Origin: Escherichia coli
Lineage (GTDB): Bacteria > Pseudomonadota > Gammaproteobacteria > Enterobacterales > Enterobacteriaceae
Reading direction: 5' to 3' (one strand)
DNA: 64,000 bases
Assembly: GCF_050920415.1 (NCBI RefSeq)
Contig: NZ_CP169309.1
The notes under the pieces are model-generated. The model did not search any database. It was not told the DNA's origin and worked only from the letters and a program-made list of their open reading frames with translations. Positions 15,127-64,000 of the stretch are shown piece after piece; the stretch's first letter is position 1; each line of letters begins with the position of its first letter. Made by a program: the position numbers and the translations under genes.

Positions 15127-15148
15127 AGTGTTGCCTTTTTGTTATCAA

Positions 15149-15178
15149 TAAAAAAGGCCCCCCGGTTTGGGAGGCCTT
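15149..15178 (-). terminator. pheA attenuator terminator
   Basis: Minus-strand RNA aaggccucccaaaccggggggccuu followed by U-run, between pheL stop and pheA start. Confidence 0.8.
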
Positions 15179-15224
15179 ATTGTTCGTCTTCGCATTCTGT
15201 TTCACACGACGAAACGCCTCCCAT

Positions 15225-15272
15225 TCAGGGGAAGGTAAAAAAGAATGCGAAGAAAAACGGTGTGTGTTTCAT
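15225..15272 (-). CDS. pheL: pheA leader peptide (15 aa, 7 Phe codons)
   Basis: atgaaacacacaccgtttttcttcgcattcttttttaccttcccctga = [15 protein letters not shown]; too short for the ORF track. Confidence 0.9.
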   Translation of the reverse strand: [15 protein letters not shown]

Positions 15273-15375
15273 GTTTGTTTCCTTAAGTGACTTTAGTACA
15301 GTACCCGTACTGTTTTCACGCTGTCAACAAAAAACGCGCCCGAAGGCGCGTTGGCGATACACTCAATATAAAGGA

Positions 15376-19390: not shown

Positions 19391-19452
19391 CCTAAAGAAT
19401 CAAGACGATCCGGTACGCGTGATTTTCTTTTCACATTAATCTGGTCAATAAC

Positions 19453-19480
19453 CTTGAATAATTGAGGGATGACCTCATTT
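19453..19480 (+). promoter_or_regulatory. clpB: sigma32 heat-shock promoter of clpB
   Basis: CTTGAA 19453-19458, 14-bp spacer, CCTCATTT 19473-19480. Confidence 0.6.
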
Positions 19481-19519
19481 AATCTCCAGTAGCAACTTTG
19501 ATCCGTTATGGGAGGAGTT

Positions 19520-22093
19520 ATGCGTCTGGATCGTCTTACTAATAAATTCCAGCTTGCTCTTGCCGATGCCCAATCACTTGCACTCGGGCACGACAACCAA
19601 TTCATCGAACCACTTCATTTAATGAGCGCCCTGCTGAATCAGGAAGGGGGTTCGGTTAGTCCTTTATTAACATCCGCCGGCATCAATGCTGGTCAGTTGC
19701 GCACAGATATCAATCAGGCATTAAATCGTTTACCGCAGGTTGAAGGCACTGGTGGCGATGTCCAGCCCTCACAGGATCTGGTGCGCGTTCTTAATCTTTG
19801 CGACAAGCTGGCGCAAAAACGTGGTGATAACTTTATCTCGTCAGAACTGTTCGTTCTGGCGGCACTTGAGTCTCGCGGCACGCTGGCCGACATCCTGAAA
19901 GCAGCAGGGGCGACCACCGCCAACATTACTCAAGCGATTGAACAAATGCGTGGAGGTGAAAGCGTGAACGATCAAGGAGCTGAAGACCAACGTCAGGCTT
20001 TGAAAAAATACACTATCGACCTCACCGAACGAGCCGAACAAGGCAAACTCGATCCGGTGATTGGCCGTGATGAAGAAATTCGCCGTACCATTCAGGTACT
20101 GCAACGTCGTACTAAAAATAACCCGGTGCTGATTGGTGAACCAGGCGTTGGTAAAACAGCCATCGTTGAAGGTCTGGCTCAGCGTATTATCAATGGCGAA
20201 GTACCGGAAGGGCTGAAAGGCCGCCGCGTACTGGCGCTGGATATGGGCGCGCTGGTGGCCGGGGCGAAATATCGCGGTGAGTTTGAAGAACGTTTAAAAG
20301 GCGTGCTTAACGATCTCGCCAAACAGGAAGGCAACGTCATCCTGTTTATCGACGAATTACATACCATGGTCGGTGCGGGTAAAGCCGATGGCGCAATGGA
20401 TGCCGGCAACATGCTGAAACCGGCGCTGGCGCGTGGTGAATTGCACTGCGTAGGTGCCACGACGCTTGACGAATATCGCCAGTACATCGAAAAAGATGCT
20501 GCGCTGGAACGTCGTTTCCAGAAAGTGTTTGTTGCCGAGCCTTCTGTTGAAGACACCATTGCTATTCTGCGTGGCCTGAAAGAACGTTACGAACTGCACC
20601 ACCATGTGCAAATTACTGACCCGGCAATTGTTGCAGCGGCGACGTTGTCTCATCGCTACATTGCTGACCGTCAGTTGCCGGATAAAGCCATCGACCTGAT
20701 CGATGAAGCAGCATCCAGCATTCGTATGCAGATTGACTCAAAACCAGAAGAACTCGACCGACTCGATCGTCGTATCATCCAGCTCAAACTGGAACAACAG
20801 GCGTTAATGAAAGAGTCTGATGAAGCCAGTAAAAAACGCCTGGATATGCTCAACGAAGAACTGAGCGACAAAGAACGTCAGTATTCCGAGTTAGAAGAAG
20901 AGTGGAAAGCTGAGAAAGCGTCGCTTTCTGGTACGCAGACCATTAAAGCGGAACTGGAACAGGCGAAAATCGCCATTGAACAGGCTCGCCGTGTGGGTGA
21001 TCTGGCGCGGATGTCTGAACTGCAATATGGCAAAATTCCAGAACTGGAAAAGCAACTGGAAGCCGCAACGCAGCTCGAAGGCAAAACTATGCGTCTCTTG
21101 CGTAATAAAGTGACCGACGCCGAAATTGCTGAAGTGCTGGCGCGTTGGACGGGGATTCCGGTTTCTCGCATGATGGAAAGCGAGCGCGAAAAACTGCTGC
21201 GTATGGAGCAAGAACTGCACCATCGCGTTATTGGTCAGAACGAAGCGGTTGATGCGGTATCTAACGCTATTCGTCGTAGCCGTGCGGGGCTTGCGGATCC
21301 AAATCGCCCGATTGGTTCATTCCTGTTCCTTGGCCCAACTGGTGTGGGTAAAACTGAGCTTTGTAAGGCGCTGGCGAACTTTATGTTTGATAGCGACGAG
21401 GCGATGGTCCGTATCGATATGTCCGAGTTTATGGAGAAACACTCGGTGTCTCGTCTGGTTGGTGCGCCTCCGGGATATGTCGGTTATGAAGAAGGTGGCT
21501 ACCTGACCGAAGCGGTGCGTCGTCGTCCGTATTCCGTCATCCTGCTGGATGAAGTGGAAAAAGCGCATCCGGATGTCTTCAACATTCTGTTGCAGGTACT
21601 GGATGATGGACGTCTGACTGACGGGCAGGGGAGAACGGTCGACTTCCGTAATACGGTTGTCATTATGACCTCTAACCTAGGTTCCGATTTGATTCAGGAA
21701 CGCTTCGGTGAACTGGATTATGCGCACATGAAAGAGCTGGTACTCGGTGTGGTAAGCCATAACTTCCGTCCGGAATTCATTAACCGTATCGATGAAGTGG
21801 TGGTCTTCCATCCGCTGGGTGAACAGCACATTGCGTCGATTGCGCAGATTCAGTTGAAACGTCTGTACAAACGTCTGGAAGAACGTGGTTATGAAATCCA
21901 CATTTCTGACGAGGCGCTGAAACTGCTGAGCGAGAACGGTTACGATCCGGTCTATGGTGCACGTCCTCTGAAACGTGCTATCCAGCAGCAGATCGAAAAC
22001 CCGCTGGCACAGCAAATACTGTCTGGTGAATTGGTTCCGGGTAAAGTTATTCGCCTGGAAGTTAATGAAGACAGGATTGTCGCCGTCCAGTAA
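19520..22093 (+). CDS. clpB: Disaggregase ClpB (Hsp100 AAA+)
   Basis: 857 aa from ATG 19520: [39 protein letters not shown]...; two Walker A boxes GEPGVGKT and GPTGVGKT. Confidence 0.97.
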
Positions 22094-22535: not shown

Positions 22536-24070
<1,535 letters not shown>

Positions 24071-24241
24071 CCTTAAAGAACTGTTCTTTGCAGTGCTCAC
24101 ACAGATTGTCTGATGAAAAGTGAATAGCAAGGCGTTTACGCGTTGGGAGTGAGGCTGAAGAGAATAAGGCCGTTCGCTTTCTGTTAATGAAAGCTCACCC
24201 TACACGAAAATATCACGCAGCGCGTGATAAGCAATTTTCGT

Positions 24242-24317
24242 GTCCCCTTCGTCTAGAGGCCCAGGACACCGCCCTTTCACGGCGGTAACAGGGGTTCGAA
24301 TCCCCTAGGGGACGCCA
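24242..24317 (+). tRNA. gltW: tRNA-Glu (UUC) in the 16S-23S spacer
   Basis: gtccccttcgtctagaggcccaggacaccgccctttcacggcggtaacaggggttcgaatcccctaggggacgcca, 76 nt, anticodon TTC in context ccctTTCacgg. Confidence 0.97.
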
Positions 24318-24501
24318 CTTGCTGGTTTGTGAGTGAAAGTCGCCGACCTTGATATCGTTAAAGATGACTTACGAGTCATGTTTAAGATATTTGCTCTTTA
24401 AAAATCTGGATCAAGCTGAAAATTGAAACACTGAACAACGAAAGTTGTTCGTGAGTCTCTCAAATTTTCGCAATCAGAAGTGAAACATCTTCGGGTTGTG
24501 A

Positions 24502-27401
<2,900 letters not shown>

Positions 27402-27494
27402 ACAACGCCGAAGATGTTTTGGCGGATTGAGAGAAGATTTTCAGCCTGATACAGATTAAATCAGAACGCAGAAGCGGTCTGATGAAACAGAATT

Positions 27495-27614
27495 TGCCTG
27501 GCGGCCTTAGCGCGGTGGTCCCACCTGACCCCATGCCGAACTCAGAAGTGAAACGCCGTAGCGCCGATGGTAGTGTGGGGTCTCCCCATGCGAGAGTAGG
27601 GAACTGCCAGGCAT
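27495..27614 (+). rRNA. rrfG: 5S ribosomal RNA
   Basis: 120 nt tgcctggcggccttagcgcggtggtcccacctgaccccatgccgaactcag...gggaactgccaggcat. Confidence 0.95.
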
Positions 27615-39249: not shown

Positions 39250-39450
39250 AATGCCGGGCTTAAACCCGGCACCCAACTTGTCGACGAAGTGCGTTTTGTT
39301 CATGCCGGATGCGGCGTGAACGCCTTATCCGGCCTACAAGATCGTGCAAATTCAATATATTGCATGAGCCATGTAGGCCTGATAAGCGTAGCGCATCAGG
39401 CAGTTTTGCGTTTGCCAGCACTTTTAATTCCGGGCTTAAACCCGGAATTA
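39250..39450. repeat. BIME/REP cluster: two inverted REP units bracketed by two copies of the palindrome ccgggcttaaacccgg
   Basis: Palindromes at 39253-39270 and 39428-39449; REP-like gccggatgcggcgtgaacgccttatccggcctac 39304-39337 and inverted gtaggcctgataagcgtagcgcatcaggca 39373-39402. Confidence 0.6.
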
Positions 39451-44930: not shown

Positions 44931-45886
44931 TGAAGCAACTTTGGTTTGCCATGTCATTAGTGACAGGTAGCCTGTTATTCTCTGCTAACGCCTCGGCCAC
45001 TCCCGCGTCCGGGGCGTTATTACAGCAGATGAACCTGGCCAGTCAGTCACTGAATTACGAGCTGTCATTCATCAGCATCAATAAACAGGGTGTTGAGTCT
45101 CTGCGTTATCGACATGCACGCCTCGATAACCGTCCTCTTGCACAATTGTTGCAAATGGATGGCCCGCGCCGGGAAGTGGTACAGCGCGGCAATGAAATCA
45201 GCTACTTTGAACCGGGCCTTGAACCGTTCACGCTTAATGGCGATTACATTGTTGATTCTCTGCCATCGCTCATCTATACCGATTTCAAACGCCTTTCTCC
45301 TTACTACGACTTTATCTCCGTGGGACGCACGCGTATTGCTGATCGTCTTTGCGAAGTCATTCGCGTGGTGGCCCGTGATGGCACACGCTACAGCTACATC
45401 GTGTGGATGGACACCGAATCGAAATTACCGATGCGGGTTGATCTCCTTGATCGCGATGGTGAAACGCTGGAACAATTTCGCGTGATTGCTTTTAACGTTA
45501 ATCAGGATATCAGCAGCAGTATGCAGACGCTGGCGAAAGCAAATCTGCCGCCGCTGCTTTCTGTTCCTGTAGGTGAAAAAGCTAAATTCAGCTGGACGCC
45601 AACCTGGTTGCCACAGGGGTTTAGTGAGGTTTCCAGCAGCCGACGTCCGTTACCGACGATGGACAACATGCCTATCGAATCACGTCTCTATTCCGACGGA
45701 TTATTCAGCTTCTCGGTAAACGTTAACCGCGCTACGCCATCGAGCACCGATCAGATGTTGCGCACCGGACGCAGAACCGTCAGTACAAGCGTACGTGATA
45801 ACGCCGAAATCACCATTGTCGGCGAACTGCCGCCGCAAACGGCGAAACGCATTGCCGAGAATATTAAGTTCGGGGCAGCGCAATGA
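44930..45886 (+). CDS. rseB: Sigma-E regulatory protein RseB
   Basis: 318-aa ORF with signal peptide; start overlaps rseA stop. Confidence 0.95.
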   Translation: MKQLWFAMSLVTGSLLFSANASATPASGALLQQMNLASQSLNYELSFISINKQGVESLRYRHARLDNRPLAQLLQMDGPRREVVQRGNEISYFEPGLEPFTLNGDYIVDSLPSLIYTDFKRLSPYYDFISVGRTRIADRLCEVIRVVARDGTRYSYIVWMDTESKLPMRVDLLDRDGETLEQFRVIAFNVNQDISSSMQTLAKANLPPLLSVPVGEKAKFSWTPTWLPQGFSEVSSSRRPLPTMDNMPIESRLYSDGLFSFSVNVNRATPSSTDQMLRTGRRTVSTSVRDNAEITIVGELPPQTAKRIAENIKFGAAQ

Positions 45887-46362
45887 TCAAAGAGTGGGCT
45901 ACGGTCGTCTCCTGGCAAAACGGGCAGGCGCTGGTCAGTTGTGATGTTAAAGCCTCATGCAGCAGCTGTGCTTCTCGTGTCGGTTGCGGTAGCCGCGTGC
46001 TGAATAAACTTGGCCCACAAACCACGCATACCATTGTCGTACCCTGTGATGAACCGTTAGTGCCGGGGCAAAAAGTGGAATTAGGAATCGCCGAGGGCAG
46101 CCTGCTTAGCTCCGCATTACTGGTTTATATGTCGCCGTTGGTGGGATTATTCCTCATCGCTTCGTTATTTCAGCTACTCTTTGCTTCAGATATTGCAGCA
46201 TTATGCGGTGCGATTCTCGGCGGCGTTGGTGGATTCCTGATTGCACGCGGCTACTCGCGAAAGTTTGCTGCCCGGGCGGAATGGCAACCGATCATCTTAA
46301 GCGTGGCATTGCCGCCAGGCCTTGTGCGATTTGAAACATCTTCGGAAGACGCGAGCCAGTGA
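45883..46362 (+). CDS. rseC: RseC (SoxR-reducing system family)
   Basis: 159-aa ORF; start overlaps rseB stop; last gene of rpoE operon. Confidence 0.93.
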   Translation: MIKEWATVVSWQNGQALVSCDVKASCSSCASRVGCGSRVLNKLGPQTTHTIVVPCDEPLVPGQKVELGIAEGSLLSSALLVYMSPLVGLFLIASLFQLLFASDIAALCGAILGGVGGFLIARGYSRKFAARAEWQPIILSVALPPGLVRFETSSEDASQ

Positions 46363-46559
46363 TTTCACTGGCTTTGTTGCATTTTGCATAACAAATGCGA
46401 GGACGTTTCCAGATACCACAATCCATACCGTATGAACATTTCCTCGCCTCAATGTTGTAGTGTAGAATGCGGCGTTTCTATTAATACAGACGTTAAGCTC
46501 AGAACAGCGACTTCTAAAAGCCTGGTTAACCGGGCATTAAGGCACAATAATCATACTTT

Positions 46560-48359
<1,800 letters not shown>

Positions 48360-49395: not shown

Positions 49396-49591
49396 TTATT
49401 TATGAGATAAATCTCCCGTGGCTAACGACATCCCCCGTCGTTGTGTATAGAATATTCCCCCGAAGTTTAAGGTTGGCACCTCCAGGTTGCCACGGCACAC
49501 GAAACAGCGTTGGTCCCCATATACCGGTAAACTGAAACTGCAGCGAAGCAGTTAGCAGAGCCATGTATATCAGGTCTGTTTCGTGTGCTGA

Positions 49592-51204
<1,613 letters not shown>

Positions 51205-53082: not shown

Positions 53083-53166
53083 TTTAAAAAGTAAAACCCC
53101 CGAACTGGTAAGGAACGGGGGTTTTACTTTACAACTTTAATTTTGTGCAGCACGCACCCTCAATGA
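53083..53166 (-). ncRNA. ohsC: Putative OhsC antitoxin sRNA of the shoB/ohsC type I TA pair (boundaries approximate)
   Basis: Minus-strand unit ending at a strong terminator (hairpin 53091-53127 plus T-run) and containing the reverse complement of 53145-53164, which pairs with shoB 5' UTR segment 53393-53412 (19/20 plus one G-U); candidate -10 cataat upstream on minus strand. Confidence 0.45.
53091..53127. terminator. Bidirectional terminator shared by acpS and the putative ohsC
   Basis: 11-bp stem gtaaaaccccc/gggggttttac, 15-nt loop, T-runs on both strands. Confidence 0.6.
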
Positions 53167-61100: not shown

Positions 61101-62027
61101 ACTACCTGGCAGATGCAGCGCCTGCGTGACAACCCGGAGTGTGCCGATCAGGAACATCAGGCGAAATCTAACGACGCCGATCCGGGCCTGAATGTGAAAC
61201 TGTCGTTTGATATCAACGAAGATGTGGCAGCACCGTATATTGCCACTGGTGCGCGTCCGAAAGTTGCCGTGCTGCGTGAGCAGGGGGTGAACTCGCATGT
61301 TGAAATGGCGGCAGCTTTCCACCGTGCAGGCTTCGATGCACTCGATGTGCATATGAGCGACCTGCTGGCTGGACGCACGGGCCTGGAGGATTTCCACGCT
61401 CTGGTAGCGTGCGGCGGTTTCTCCTACGGTGATGTGCTGGGTGCTGGTGAAGGCTGGGCGAAGTCTATCCTGTTCAATGACCGTGTACGCGATGAGTTTG
61501 CAACCTTCTTCCACCGTCCGCAAACGCTGGCGCTGGGGGTATGTAACGGTTGCCAGATGATGTCTAACCTACGCGAACTGATCCCAGGTAGCGAGTTGTG
61601 GCCACGTTTCGTGCGTAACACCTCCGATCGCTTTGAAGCGCGTTTCAGCCTGGTAGAAGTGACCCAAAGCCCGTCTCTGCTGTTGCAAGGGATGGTGGGT
61701 TCGCAGATGCCGATTGCTGTCTCTCACGGCGAAGGACGCGTGGAAGTGCGCGATGCGGCGCATCTGGCGGCACTGGAAAGCAAAGGGCTGGTGGCACTGC
61801 GCTATGTCGATAACTTCGGCAAAGTCACTGAAACCTACCCGGCTAACCCGAACGGTTCTCCGAATGGTATTACGGCGGTCACGACTGAAAGTGGTCGAGT
61901 CACCATTATGATGCCGCACCCGGAACGTGTTTTCCGTACTGTCAGTAACTCCTGGCATCCGGAAAACTGGGGCGAGGATGGCCCATGGATGCGTATTTTC
62001 CGCAATGCGCGTAAGCAGTTGGGGTAA
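58140..62027 (+). CDS. purL: Phosphoribosylformylglycinamidine synthase (large PurL)
   Basis: 1295-aa [46 protein letters not shown]... with C-terminal glutaminase region. Confidence 0.98.
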
Positions 62028-62049
62028 GTCGTCAAACTATTGGTTTTGC

Positions 62050-62083
62050 TGCCCGGATGTGGCATTCACGCCGCATCCGGCAT
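62050..62083. repeat. REP-like palindromic element downstream of purL
   Basis: gcccggatgtggcattcacgccgcatccggcat. Confidence 0.4.
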
Positions 62084-62105
62084 TAAACGCCGACCACTAT
62101 CATAA

Positions 62106-62130
62106 GCTCCCAGCTCCGGGAGCTTTTTTT
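62106..62130 (+). terminator. purL rho-independent terminator
   Basis: Stem gctccc/gggagc with 6-nt loop followed by T7 at 62124-62130. Confidence 0.6.
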
Positions 62131-62131
62131 G

Positions 62132-62245
62132 TGTCTGTAAATCACGACAATGGGTGGTTTACTGTGTCGCTTTTTGGCGACATTTAATTGATTGATTTTA
62201 TTTGGGTCTAATAAATTTATCTTAAGGTGTCTCTTTTTAGCGACA
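62132..62245. promoter_or_regulatory. glmY: Three GlrR (QseF) binding sites of the glmY upstream activating region
   Basis: TGTC-N10-GACA at 62132-62149, 62165-62182 and 62228-62245. Confidence 0.6.
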
Positions 62246-62334
62246 CAATGGCTGATTGACACCCAAATAGCGAAGAAGTCATAAATCCATCAAAACAACG
62301 TATAATCAGTACGTTACCAAACTATTTTATTTAT

Positions 62335-62350
62335 TGGCACAGTTACTGCA
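62335..62350 (+). promoter_or_regulatory. glmY: sigma54 promoter of glmY (overlaps a sigma70 -10 cataat)
   Basis: TGGCAC-agtta-cTGCAt with GG at -24 and GC at -12 relative to the transcript start near 62362. Confidence 0.65.
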
Positions 62351-62361
62351 TAATAGTCATC

Positions 62362-62545
62362 AGTGGCTCATTCACCGACTTATGTCAGCCCCTTCGGGAC
62401 GTGCTACATAAAATTCGAATGACGCACAACAAGGTGCCTGCCGTCCAACTTCTGATATCAGCTTAGCTATATCAACCCTCGGGCGAAACGTCGAGTTAGG
62501 CACCGCCTTATTCCATAACAAAGCCGGGTCATTCCCGGCTTTGTT
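62362..62545 (+). ncRNA. glmY: GlmY small RNA
   Basis: agtggctcattcaccgacttatgtcagccccttcgggacgtgctacataaaattcgaatgacgc... recognised as GlmY; terminator hairpin agccgggtcattcccggct 62522-62540 plus T-run; sits between purL and glrK as in K-12. Confidence 0.8.
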
Positions 62546-62603
62546 GTATCTGAACTTCCCCTCGGTTAGCATCAGGCTATTCGCGTCTGACGAGAGTAAC
62601 ACC

Positions 62604-64000
62604 TTGAAACGCTGGCCCGTTTTTCCCCGCTCATTACGACAACTGGTAATGCTGGCATTTTTGCTGATTCTGCTACCCCTGTTGGTGCTGGCATGGCAAG
62701 CCTGGCAAAGCCTGAATGCGCTTAGCGATCAGGCGGCGCTGGTTAACCGCACTACGCTTATTGATGCCCGGCGCAGTGAAGCGATGACCAACGCGGCGCT
62801 GGAGATGGAGCGTAGCTACCGTCAGTATTGCGTGCTGGATGACCCAACCCTGGCGAAGGTTTATCAAAGCCAGCGCAAGCGTTATAGCGAAATGCTCGAT
62901 GCCCACGCAGGCGTACTGCCGGACGATAAACTATACCAGGCATTGCGTCAGGACTTGAACAATCTGGCTCAACTTCAGTGTAACAACAGCGGTCCCGATG
63001 CTGCCGCCGCCGCGCGTCTGGAAGCTTTTGCCAGCGCCAATACCGAAATGGTACAGGCCACGCGCACAGTGGTGTTCTCTCGCGGACAGCAGCTTCAGCG
63101 TGAAATCGCCGAACGTGGGCAATATTTTGGTTGGCAATCGCTGGTGTTATTTCTGGTAAGTCTGGTGATGGTGCTGCTCTTCACGCGGATGATTATCGGC
63201 CCGGTGAAAAATATTGAACGGATGATCAACCGTCTGGGGGAAGGGCGTTCTCTGGGCAATAGCGTTTCGTTCAGTGGACCGAGTGAGTTACGCTCGGTTG
63301 GGCAACGTATTCTTTGGTTAAGTGAGCGCCTGTCATGGCTGGAATCCCAGCGCCATCAATTCTTAAGACATTTATCTCATGAATTAAAAACCCCGCTGGC
63401 GAGTATGCGAGAGGGCACTGAATTACTGGCTGACCAGGTTGTCGGGCCGCTTACGCCCGAGCAAAAAGAGGTGGTGAGCATCCTTGATAGCAGCAGCCGC
63501 AATTTGCAAAAACTGATCGAACAACTGCTTGATTACAACCGTAAACAGGCGGACGGTGCAGTGGAACTGGAGAGTGTAGAGTTAGCACCGCTGGTGGAAA
63601 TGGTGGTTTCTGCTCATAGCCTGCCCGCACGGGCTAAAATGATGCATACCGACGTCGATCTCAAAGCAACTGCTTGCCTGGCGGAGCCAATGCTGCTGAT
63701 GAGCGTACTGGATAATCTTTACTCCAATGCGGTGCACTACGGGGCTGAATCCGGTAACATTTGCCTTCGCAGCAGTTTACATGGCGCGCGGGTTTATATT
63801 GATGTCATCAATACGGGCACACCCATTCCGCAAGAGGAACGCGCCATGATCTTCGAACCCTTTTTTCAGGGAAGCCACCAGCGAAAAGGGGCGGTGAAGG
63901 GCAGCGGTCTGGGATTAAGCATTGCCAGGGATTGTATTCGCCGTATGCAGGGGGAACTGCATCTGGTCGACGAGAGCGGGCAAGAGGTTTGCTTCCGCAT
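62604..64000 (+). CDS. glrK: Sensor histidine kinase GlrK (QseE/YfhK), N-terminal ~465 codons; 3' end runs off the window
   Basis: Open frame from TTG 62604 to window end translating (M)KRWPVFPRSLRQLVMLAFLLILLPLLVLAWQAWQSLNALSD... with HAMP and HisKA/HATPase motifs; not in ORF track because no stop in window. Confidence 0.85.
   Translation, partial: MKRWPVFPRSLRQLVMLAFLLILLPLLVLAWQAWQSLNALSDQAALVNRTTLIDARRSEAMTNAALEMERSYRQYCVLDDPTLAKVYQSQRKRYSEMLDAHAGVLPDDKLYQALRQDLNNLAQLQCNNSGPDAAAAARLEAFASANTEMVQATRTVVFSRGQQLQREIAERGQYFGWQSLVLFLVSLVMVLLFTRMIIGPVKNIERMINRLGEGRSLGNSVSFSGPSELRSVGQRILWLSERLSWLESQRHQFLRHLSHELKTPLASMREGTELLADQVVGPLTPEQKEVVSILDSSSRNLQKLIEQLLDYNRKQADGAVELESVELAPLVEMVVSAHSLPARAKMMHTDVDLKATACLAEPMLLMSVLDNLYSNAVHYGAESGNICLRSSLHGARVYIDVINTGTPIPQEERAMIFEPFFQGSHQRKGAVKGSGLGLSIARDCIRRMQGELHLVDESGQEVCFR

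What the first reader, a model, noticed from the sequence alone, without database searches (positions are those of the whole stretch)
62132..62545. glmY sRNA with sigma54 promoter and three GlrR sites upstream of glrK
A complete GlmY unit is present: three TGTC-N10-GACA sites (62132-62149, 62165-62182, 62228-62245), a sigma54 promoter TGGCAC-N5-TGCA (62335-62350) overlapping a sigma70 -10, a transcript starting at agtggctcattcacc (62362) and a terminator at 62522-62545. It feeds the GlmY/GlmZ/RapZ control of glmS. It is well described, not novel, but is non-coding and overlapped by a spurious 76-aa antisense ORF in the track (62372-62602).
Basis: partly seen in the sequence, partly recalled or inferred. 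Interest (0 to 1): 0.35.

Follow-up and report, generated by a model that had tools for sequence, protein, structure and literature searches.

The report
Ordinary E. coli glmY small-RNA gene

Summary
The observation and the interpretation both hold. Rfam's GlmY_tke1 model matches window 62362-62509 (+) at 145.3 bits against a gathering score of 33. The annotated K-12 glmY (b4441, 184 nt) aligns end to end with window 62362-62545 and 180 of 184 bases are identical.

All three TGTC-N10-GACA sites lie at the stated coordinates (-230, -197 and -134 from the start site). They are the only three in the 64 kb window.

The sigma54 promoter TGGCAC-N5-CTGCA is at 62335-62350. The published sigma70 -10 box CATAAT (62349-62354) overlaps its -12 element.

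Two perfect IHF consensus sites flank the third GlrR site, as published.

The flanking genes are purL upstream and glrK/qseE downstream. The same promoter layout recurs in 93 Enterobacterales genomes.

The 76-aa antisense ORF exists but is almost certainly not a gene. It matches no protein family, stop codons break its frame in most genera, and RefSeq annotators do not call it.

The only mildly unusual point is that the 230-bp regulatory region is a rare, diverged E. coli allele (11.7% different from K-12). None of those differences touches a motif position.

Verdict: already known, low interest.

The parts
62132..62149 (+). GlrR (QseF) activator binding site 1, TGTCTGTAAATCACGACA, at -230
   Evidence: Exact TGTC-N10-GACA match. 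Identical in K-12. Sites occur at matching offsets in other Enterobacterales.
62165..62182 (+). GlrR activator binding site 2, TGTCGCTTTTTGGCGACA, at -197
   Evidence: Exact match. The half-sites are identical to K-12 and there is one change in the spacer.
62185..62197 (-). IHF-like site upstream of site 3 (AATCAATCAATTA)
   Evidence: Perfect WATCARNNNNTTR match, one of only 5 in the 64 kb window. Gopel 2011 reports two IHF-like regions flanking site 3. The differences from K-12 fall only on the N positions.
62228..62245 (+). GlrR activator binding site 3, TGTCTCTTTTTAGCGACA, at -134
   Evidence: Exact match. Identical in K-12.
62304..62316 (+). IHF-like site between site 3 and the promoter (AATCAGTACGTTA), -58 to -46
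   Evidence: Perfect WATCARNNNNTTR match. Invariant against K-12. Unchanged in 7 of the 8 other E. coli alleles inspected; strain SCU-124 (L126) has one change on an N position.
62335..62350 (+). Sigma54 promoter TGGCAC-N5-CTGCA (GG at 62336-62337, GC at 62348-62349)
   Evidence: A TGGCA-N7-TGC motif lies at -26 to -28 in 93 Enterobacterales glmY loci. Invariant in all 9 E. coli alleles aligned.
62349..62354 (+). Overlapping sigma70 -10 box CATAAT
   Evidence: Read directly from the sequence. It is the same hexamer that Gopel 2011 names as the characterised -10 of E. coli glmY. The generic sigma70 scanner found no full promoter because the -35 is weak (TTTATT).
62362..62545 (+). glmY primary transcript, 184 nt
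   Evidence: Aligns end to end with K-12 ncRNA glmY b4441, 180/184 identical. The fold has z = -4.95 against shuffles.
62362..62509 (+). Part corresponding to the processed, active 148-nt GlmY (stem-loops 1 and 2)
   Evidence: Rfam RF00128 hit over model positions 1-163 of 163, 145.3 bits. The 148-nt active form is stated in PMC4152352. 7 of 28 consensus pairs show compensatory changes across 94 sequences.
62517..62545 (+). Intrinsic terminator hairpin of glmY
   Evidence: A 12-bp hairpin in the minimum-energy fold. Its end coincides with the K-12 annotated 3' end.
62604..64000 (+). glrK/qseE sensor kinase gene, TTG start, cut off by the window end
   Evidence: RefSeq annotation of a near-identical genome. 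Histidine-kinase family matches. 58-nt spacer after glmY, as in K-12.
62372..62602 (-). 76-aa antisense ORF, judged non-coding
   Evidence: The ORF is listed. No Pfam or NCBIfam match. The frame is interrupted by stops or frameshifts in most genera. It is not annotated in the 9 RefSeq genomes inspected.

Best explanation
This is the E. coli glmY gene with its complete, canonical control region.

Shown here from sequence: the RNA, its structure, its ends by homology, all the promoter motifs and the gene order.

Inferred from published work on K-12:
- Phosphorylated GlrR (QseF), the response regulator of the GlrK/QseE kinase encoded just downstream, binds the three TGTC-N10-GACA sites at -230, -197 and -134.
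- IHF bends the DNA at the sites flanking site 3.
- GlrR then activates sigma54 RNA polymerase at the -24/-12 promoter.
- A weak sigma70 promoter, whose -10 box CATAAT overlaps the -12 element, starts transcription at the same nucleotide (62362).
- The 184-nt transcript ends at the hairpin at 62517-62545 and is trimmed to about 148 nt.
- That RNA mimics GlmZ and sequesters the RNase E adaptor RapZ. GlmZ then survives and activates glmS translation when glucosamine-6-phosphate is low.
For: - Rfam GlmY_tke1 scores 145.3 bits against a gathering score of 33, over the full model.
- The region is 97.8% identical to K-12 glmY b4441 with both ends coincident.
- The four differences from K-12 (+54, +102, +117, +169) all fall on unpaired positions of the predicted fold.
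- The structure is supported across 94 sequences, with 7 of 28 pairs showing compensatory changes.
- The only three TGTC-N10-GACA sites in 64 kb cluster here, at offsets also seen in other Enterobacterales. 79 of 90 loci have three such sites with at most one mismatch.
- The sigma54 motif lies at about -27 in 93 loci.
- Two of the five perfect IHF consensus matches in the window flank site 3, as published.
- Of 27 differences from K-12 in the 230-bp control region, none falls on the 57 specified motif positions (P = 2.6e-4).
- The gene order is purL-glmY-glrK.
- qseG and glrR follow in a genome that differs from the window at 1 of 4,973 bases.
- glmZ is present in 5,424 of 5,426 complete E. 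coli genomes.
- The mechanism comes from PMC3045617 and PMC4152352.
Against: - No expression, binding or processing data exist for this strain, so the start site, the 148-nt processing and RapZ sequestration rest on homology.
- The generic sigma70 and terminator scanners did not call the sigma70 promoter or the glmY terminator. The -35 is weak and the U-run is interrupted.
- glrR, rapZ, glmZ and glmS are not inside the window.
Confidence: 0.97

Rival explanations
1. The RNA is the paralogue GlmZ, the base-pairing activator of glmS, rather than GlmY.
For: GlmY and GlmZ belong to one Rfam clan (CL00011), and one lower-scoring overlapping match from the same clan was suppressed. The window RNA aligns with K-12 GlmZ over stem-loops 1 and 2.
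Against: GlmY_tke1 is the best clan member at 145 bits. Identity to K-12 glmY is 97.8%, whereas the GlmZ alignment is gapped and loses similarity in the 3' part. The gene order here is purL/glrK, while glmZ lies between aslA and hemY. E. coli glmZ has no sigma54 promoter or GlrR sites.
Confidence: 0.01
2. The 76-aa ORF on the minus strand (62372-62602) is a real protein-coding gene overlapping glmY.
For: An uninterrupted GTG-started ORF exists. It stays open in Escherichia and some Citrobacter.
Against: There is no Pfam or NCBIfam match. In most other genera the homologous frame carries stop codons or frameshifts even though the DNA is conserved. The median longest antisense open stretch is 57 aa, with a minimum of 30. 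Its apparent conservation is explained by constraint on the sRNA on the other strand. It is not annotated in the 9 RefSeq genomes inspected.
Confidence: 0.02
3. In addition to making the sRNA, the glmY promoters drive glrK-qseG-glrR by read-through of the glmY terminator. The unit would then double as a leader of the two-component operon.
For: Only 58 nt separate the terminator from the glrK start. The U-run after the hairpin is interrupted, and the scanner did not call it a terminator. In Proteus mirabilis, glmY-qseE-qseG-qseF are reported as one operon (abstract of PMC8745638).
Against: [quoted passage not shown] The hairpin is strong, with 12 base pairs.
Confidence: 0.12
4. The motif cluster is a chance assembly of short consensus matches.
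For: The loose sigma54 pattern and the IHF pattern are individually no more frequent in the window than in shuffles.
Against: Three exact 8-base palindromic sites lie within 114 bp when 0.71 are expected per 64 kb. The positions are conserved across 90 or more genomes. No substitutions fall on motif positions in a region that is 11.7% diverged from K-12.
Confidence: 0.003

Closest known systems
E. coli K-12 glmY (b4441; formerly sroF/tke1), Rfam RF00128
   Same: Same locus, purL-glmY-glrK. The 5' and 3' ends are identical and 180 of 184 bases match. The three GlrR sites, the two IHF-like sites, the sigma54 -24/-12 element, the CATAAT -10 box and the 58-nt spacer to glrK are the same.
   Different: There are four base changes in the RNA, all at predicted unpaired positions. 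There are 27 changes in the 230-bp control region, all outside specified motif positions. An 18-bp longer REP-like element lies upstream, and the weak -35 region has one change (TTTATT against TTTCTT).
GlmZ sRNA (Rfam clan CL00011)
   Same: Homologous 5' two-thirds with the same stem-loop 1 and stem-loop 2 architecture. This is the basis of the mimicry for RapZ.
   Different: GlmZ sits at another locus (aslA-hemY). In E. coli it has a plain sigma70 promoter without GlrR or IHF sites. Its 3' part, which pairs with glmS in GlmZ, is not conserved in the window RNA.
glmY loci of other Enterobacterales (Salmonella, Citrobacter, Yersinia, Serratia, Photorhabdus and others)
   Same: Sigma54 promoter at about -27, two or three TGTC-N10-GACA sites upstream, and a conserved RNA core with compensatory changes.
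   Different: Site offsets shift in more distant genera, for example -246, -214 and -151 in Yersinia. According to Gopel 2011 the overlapping sigma70 -10 box is present in only some genera.

Membership tests
GlmY sRNA (Rfam RF00128 GlmY_tke1) | Covariance-model score at or above the curated gathering score | tested here: met
   145.3 bits against 33, over model positions 1-163 of 163.
GlmY sRNA (Rfam RF00128 GlmY_tke1) | Orthology to K-12 glmY with the same transcript ends | tested here: met
   b4441 aligns to 62362-62545 with 180/184 identical.
GlmY sRNA (Rfam RF00128 GlmY_tke1) | Conserved secondary structure of two 5' stem-loops plus a terminator hairpin | tested here: met
   Minimum free energy -64.2 kcal/mol, z = -4.95. 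The consensus fold of 94 sequences has 28 pairs, 7 with compensatory changes.
GlmY sRNA (Rfam RF00128 GlmY_tke1) | Location between purL and glrK/qseE | tested here: met
   The purL ORF ends at 62027. qseE starts at 62604 by RefSeq annotation of a near-identical genome. The product matches histidine-kinase families.
GlmY sRNA (Rfam RF00128 GlmY_tke1) | Transcribed as 184 nt and processed to an active 148-nt form | not testable with these tools
   Known for K-12 (PMC4152352). No expression data are available for this sequence.
GlmY sRNA (Rfam RF00128 GlmY_tke1) | Binds and sequesters RapZ, protecting GlmZ | not testable with these tools
   Published mechanism. Only sequence conservation of the stem-loops could be checked here.
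GlrR/sigma54-dependent glmY promoter (Reichenbach 2009; Gopel 2011) | Three TGTC-N10-GACA GlrR sites more than 100 bp upstream | tested here: met
   Exact sites at -230, -197 and -134, the only three in the window.
GlrR/sigma54-dependent glmY promoter (Reichenbach 2009; Gopel 2011) | Sigma54 -24 GG / -12 GC element at the correct distance from the start site | tested here: met
   TGGCACAGTTACTGCA at 62335-62350, that is -27. A TGGCA-N7-TGC motif lies at -26 to -28 in 93 loci.
GlrR/sigma54-dependent glmY promoter (Reichenbach 2009; Gopel 2011) | Two IHF-like sites (WATCARNNNNTTR) flanking GlrR site 3 | tested here: met
   Perfect matches at 62185-62197 (-) and 62304-62316 (+). Actual IHF binding was not tested.
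GlrR/sigma54-dependent glmY promoter (Reichenbach 2009; Gopel 2011) | Overlapping sigma70 promoter with -10 box CATAAT that starts at the same nucleotide | tested here: met
   CATAAT at 62349-62354 overlaps the -12 GC, and it is the published hexamer. Use of the same start site cannot be tested here.
GlrR/sigma54-dependent glmY promoter (Reichenbach 2009; Gopel 2011) | Cognate two-component system glrK-qseG-glrR encoded downstream | tested here: met
   glrK is in the window (62604 to the end). qseG and glrR lie beyond the window but follow in strain MFDS1022581, which differs from the window at 1 of 4,973 bases.

The most novel reading that the evidence does not exclude
The glmY control region here is a rare, deeply diverged E. 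coli haplotype. It is at least 95% identical in only 9 of 5,425 complete genomes and differs from K-12 by 11.7% over 230 bp, against 2.2% in glmY and about 3.8% in the flanking genes. It could have been imported by recombination, or kept by selection, and could tune glmY output differently, for example through the changed -35 region, the spacers or the IHF flanks, even though every core motif is intact.
Probability: 0.1. Interest if true: 0.3.

Novelty: already known. Interest (0 to 1): 0.08.

Why it matters
It matters little as a discovery. GlmY, its overlapping sigma54 and sigma70 promoters, the GlrR and IHF sites and the GlmY/GlmZ/RapZ/glmS circuit are well characterised in E. coli K-12.

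The practical value is for annotation:
- glmY was absent from the automated RefSeq annotation of all 8 non-K-12 E. coli genomes inspected.
- A 76-aa antisense ORF can be called over it by mistake, so this window should carry an ncRNA feature at 62362-62545 and no CDS on the opposite strand.
- The diverged regulatory allele gives a natural footprint that independently marks the published GlrR, IHF and sigma54 motifs as the constrained positions.

Tried and rejected
- The generic sigma70 and terminator scan found neither the glmY sigma70 promoter nor the glmY terminator. This reflects the scanner's thresholds (weak -35, interrupted U-run) and is not evidence of absence. It did find the purL terminator at 62104-62125.
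- The loose sigma54 and IHF patterns are not enriched window-wide, so their support comes from position and conservation, not from counts.
- The weak Rfam matches STnc260 (62163-62308 minus strand, 23 bits against 100) and naRNA4 (62051-62095, 19.8 bits against 59.5) were dismissed as chance or REP-related.
- NCBIfam gave only sub-threshold histidine-kinase matches for GlrK and no matching GlrK/QseE model. The gene name therefore rests on RefSeq annotation of a near-identical genome.
- The fixed-offset identity comparisons of the upstream and purL segments, 30 were unreliable because intergenic lengths differ. They were replaced by direct comparisons.
- 26 of the 120 genome contigs pattern matches came from unrelated taxa (Prevotellaceae, Lachnospiraceae, archaea and others). 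They lack the sigma54 motif and were discarded as chance matches.
- The GlmZ reading and the coding reading of the antisense ORF were both considered and rejected (see the rival explanations).

Full report
**Observation**

- TGTC-N10-GACA occurs exactly three times in the 64 kb window on both strands, at 62132-62149, 62165-62182 and 62228-62245.
- Shuffles give 0.71 matches per 64 kb. Three real sites within 114 bp are therefore far beyond chance.
- TGGCACAGTTACTGCA lies at 62335-62350. The correct notation is TGGCAC-N5-CTGCA, not TGGCAC-N5-TGCA.
- CATAAT at 62349-62354 overlaps the -12 GC and ends 7 nt before 62362.
- The ORF lister confirms a GTG-started 76-aa ORF at 62372-62602 on the minus strand. 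It also shows purL (1,295 aa) ending at 62027.

**Identity of the RNA**

- A whole-window Rfam scan at gathering thresholds gives GlmY_tke1 (RF00128) at 62362-62509 (+). The score is 145.3 bits against a gathering score of 33, over the full model. A more permissive rescan of 61900-62800 adds only two weak chance-level matches.
- K-12 MG1655 carries ncRNA glmY b4441 between glrK and purL. In a pairwise alignment its 5' end falls on window 62362 and its 3' end on 62545, with 180 of 184 bases identical.
- The four differences (62415, 62463, 62478 and 62530, which are +54, +102, +117 and +169) all lie at unpaired positions of the predicted fold. That fold has two 5' stem-loop domains and a 12-bp terminal hairpin at 62517-62545. 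Its energy is -64.2 kcal/mol, z = -4.95 against shuffles.

**Comparison across species**

- One DNA-pattern scan of species-representative genomes returned 120 loci. Of these, 93 are Enterobacterales glmY loci with a TGGCA-N7-TGC motif at -26 to -28. Another 26 are chance matches in unrelated taxa without that motif. One more is an Arsenophonus endosymbiont (L079) whose promoter did not match the pattern used.
- With at most one mismatch allowed, 79 of 90 loci have three TGTC-N10-GACA sites upstream and 11 have two.
- The E. coli-named representative L037 and Salmonella enterica subsp. diarizonae (L091) share the window's offsets of -230, -197 and -134.
- A 94-sequence alignment gives a consensus fold of 28 pairs. 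Seven of them keep pairing through changes on both sides.

**Promoter architecture against the literature**

- Gopel et al. 2011 (PMC3045617) state that GlrR binds three TGTCN10GACA motifs more than 100 bp upstream of E. coli glmY.
- They also state that overlapping sigma70 and sigma54 promoters start at the same nucleotide, and that the characterised -10 box is CATAAT overlapping the -12 element.
- Two IHF-like regions (WATCARXXXXTTR) flank site 3, and IHF is essential for the sigma54 promoter.
- In the window, two of the five perfect matches to that IHF consensus lie at 62185-62197 (-) and 62304-62316 (+). They flank site 3 exactly as published.
- The generic sigma70 and terminator scanner called neither the sigma70 promoter nor the glmY terminator. 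This is explained by the weak -35 (TTTATT) and the interrupted U-run.

**Surroundings**

- glrK/qseE starts with TTG at 62604, 58 nt after the terminator as in K-12, and runs off the window end.
- The window differs at 1 of 4,973 bases from E. coli MFDS1022581, where qseG and glrR follow.
- The partner sRNA gene glmZ is outside the window but is present in 5,424 of 5,426 complete E. coli genomes.
- The window RNA aligns with GlmZ only over the 5' stem-loops, consistent with the published mimicry relationship.

**Antisense ORF**

- It matches no Pfam or NCBIfam family.
- In translated comparisons with the 93 loci, the frame is open in Escherichia and some Citrobacter. It is interrupted by stops or frameshifts in Salmonella, Enterobacter, Kosakonia, Pseudescherichia and others. 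The median longest antisense open stretch is 57 aa and the minimum is 30.
- No CDS is annotated there in the 9 RefSeq genomes inspected.
- Its apparent conservation is best explained by constraint on the sRNA on the other strand.

**The one unusual aspect**

- The 583-bp intergenic segment is 100% identical to one genome and at least 95% identical in only 18 of 5,425.
- The 230-bp enhancer-promoter part is at least 95% identical in only 9 genomes and 80-95% in the rest.
- Against K-12 it carries 27 differences (11.7%). glmY differs by 2.2%. The adjacent purL and glrK sequences differ by about 3.8%.
- None of the 27 differences falls on the 57 specified positions of the GlrR half-sites, IHF consensus, sigma54 element or -10 box (hypergeometric P = 2.6e-4).
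- Nine E. coli alleles aligned together show that the region is polymorphic in general, and that the window belongs to a minority haplotype group.
- This works as a natural footprint of the published motifs and says the source is a diverged E. coli lineage. It does not change the functional reading.

**Mechanism**

Shown from sequence: the RNA, its structure, its ends by homology, all motifs and the gene order.

Inferred from K-12 work:
- GlrK/QseE phosphorylates GlrR.
- GlrR bound at the three sites, helped by IHF bending, activates sigma54 polymerase.
- A weak sigma70 promoter gives basal transcription from the same start.
- The 184-nt RNA is trimmed to 148 nt.
- That form sequesters RapZ, sparing GlmZ, which then activates glmS when glucosamine-6-phosphate is scarce.

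**Verdict**

The feature is already known and of low interest. Its practical value is for annotation: add the ncRNA feature and do not call the antisense ORF.

Noticed in passing
window 62132-62361: The glmY enhancer-promoter region is a rare, diverged E. coli allele. It is at least 95% identical in only 9 of 5,425 complete genomes and differs from K-12 by 11.7%. None of the 27 differences falls on a specified motif position.
   Followed up: partly
window 62047-62085: A REP-like palindrome sits in the purL 3' region, with a weak naRNA4 match at 62051-62095. K-12 and some other strains lack 18 bp of it (62060-62077).
   Followed up: partly
window 62104-62125: The purL intrinsic terminator (AAGCTCCCAGCTCCGGGAGCTT followed by a T-run) ends 7 nt before GlrR site 1.
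   Followed up: no
window 61483-62027 and 62604-63302: The flanking coding sequence is 3.9% (purL 3' end) and 3.7% (glrK 5' end) diverged from K-12. This suggests a deep or atypical E. coli lineage. The window differs from strain MFDS1022581 (NZ_CP169399.1) at 1 of 4,973 bases.
   Followed up: partly
L005 (Escherichia albertii NBRC 107761), about 260 nt upstream of glmY: GlmY is 98.4% identical to the window, but the upstream control region barely aligns with E. coli outside the motifs. Two of its GlrR sites end in GACG instead of GACA.
   Followed up: no
L128 (E. coli 2013C-4282), position equivalent to window 62165-62168: A close relative of the window allele has TGTT instead of TGTC in the left half of GlrR site 2. 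This is a natural variant in a core position.
   Followed up: no
L001 and L123-L129 (RefSeq E. coli genomes): The automated RefSeq annotation of the 8 non-K-12 genomes inspected carries no glmY ncRNA feature. Only K-12 does.
   Followed up: yes
window 15148-53164 (several sites): Other Rfam matches at gathering score: an rrn operon with StyR-44 and a tRNA (22536-27612), Phe leader (15148-15273, minus strand), RyfD (19401-19539), ES036/CssrF (39338-39380), AsrC antisense of rseC (45847-46678, minus strand), rncO (49462-49676) and ohsC (53088-53164, minus strand).
   Followed up: no
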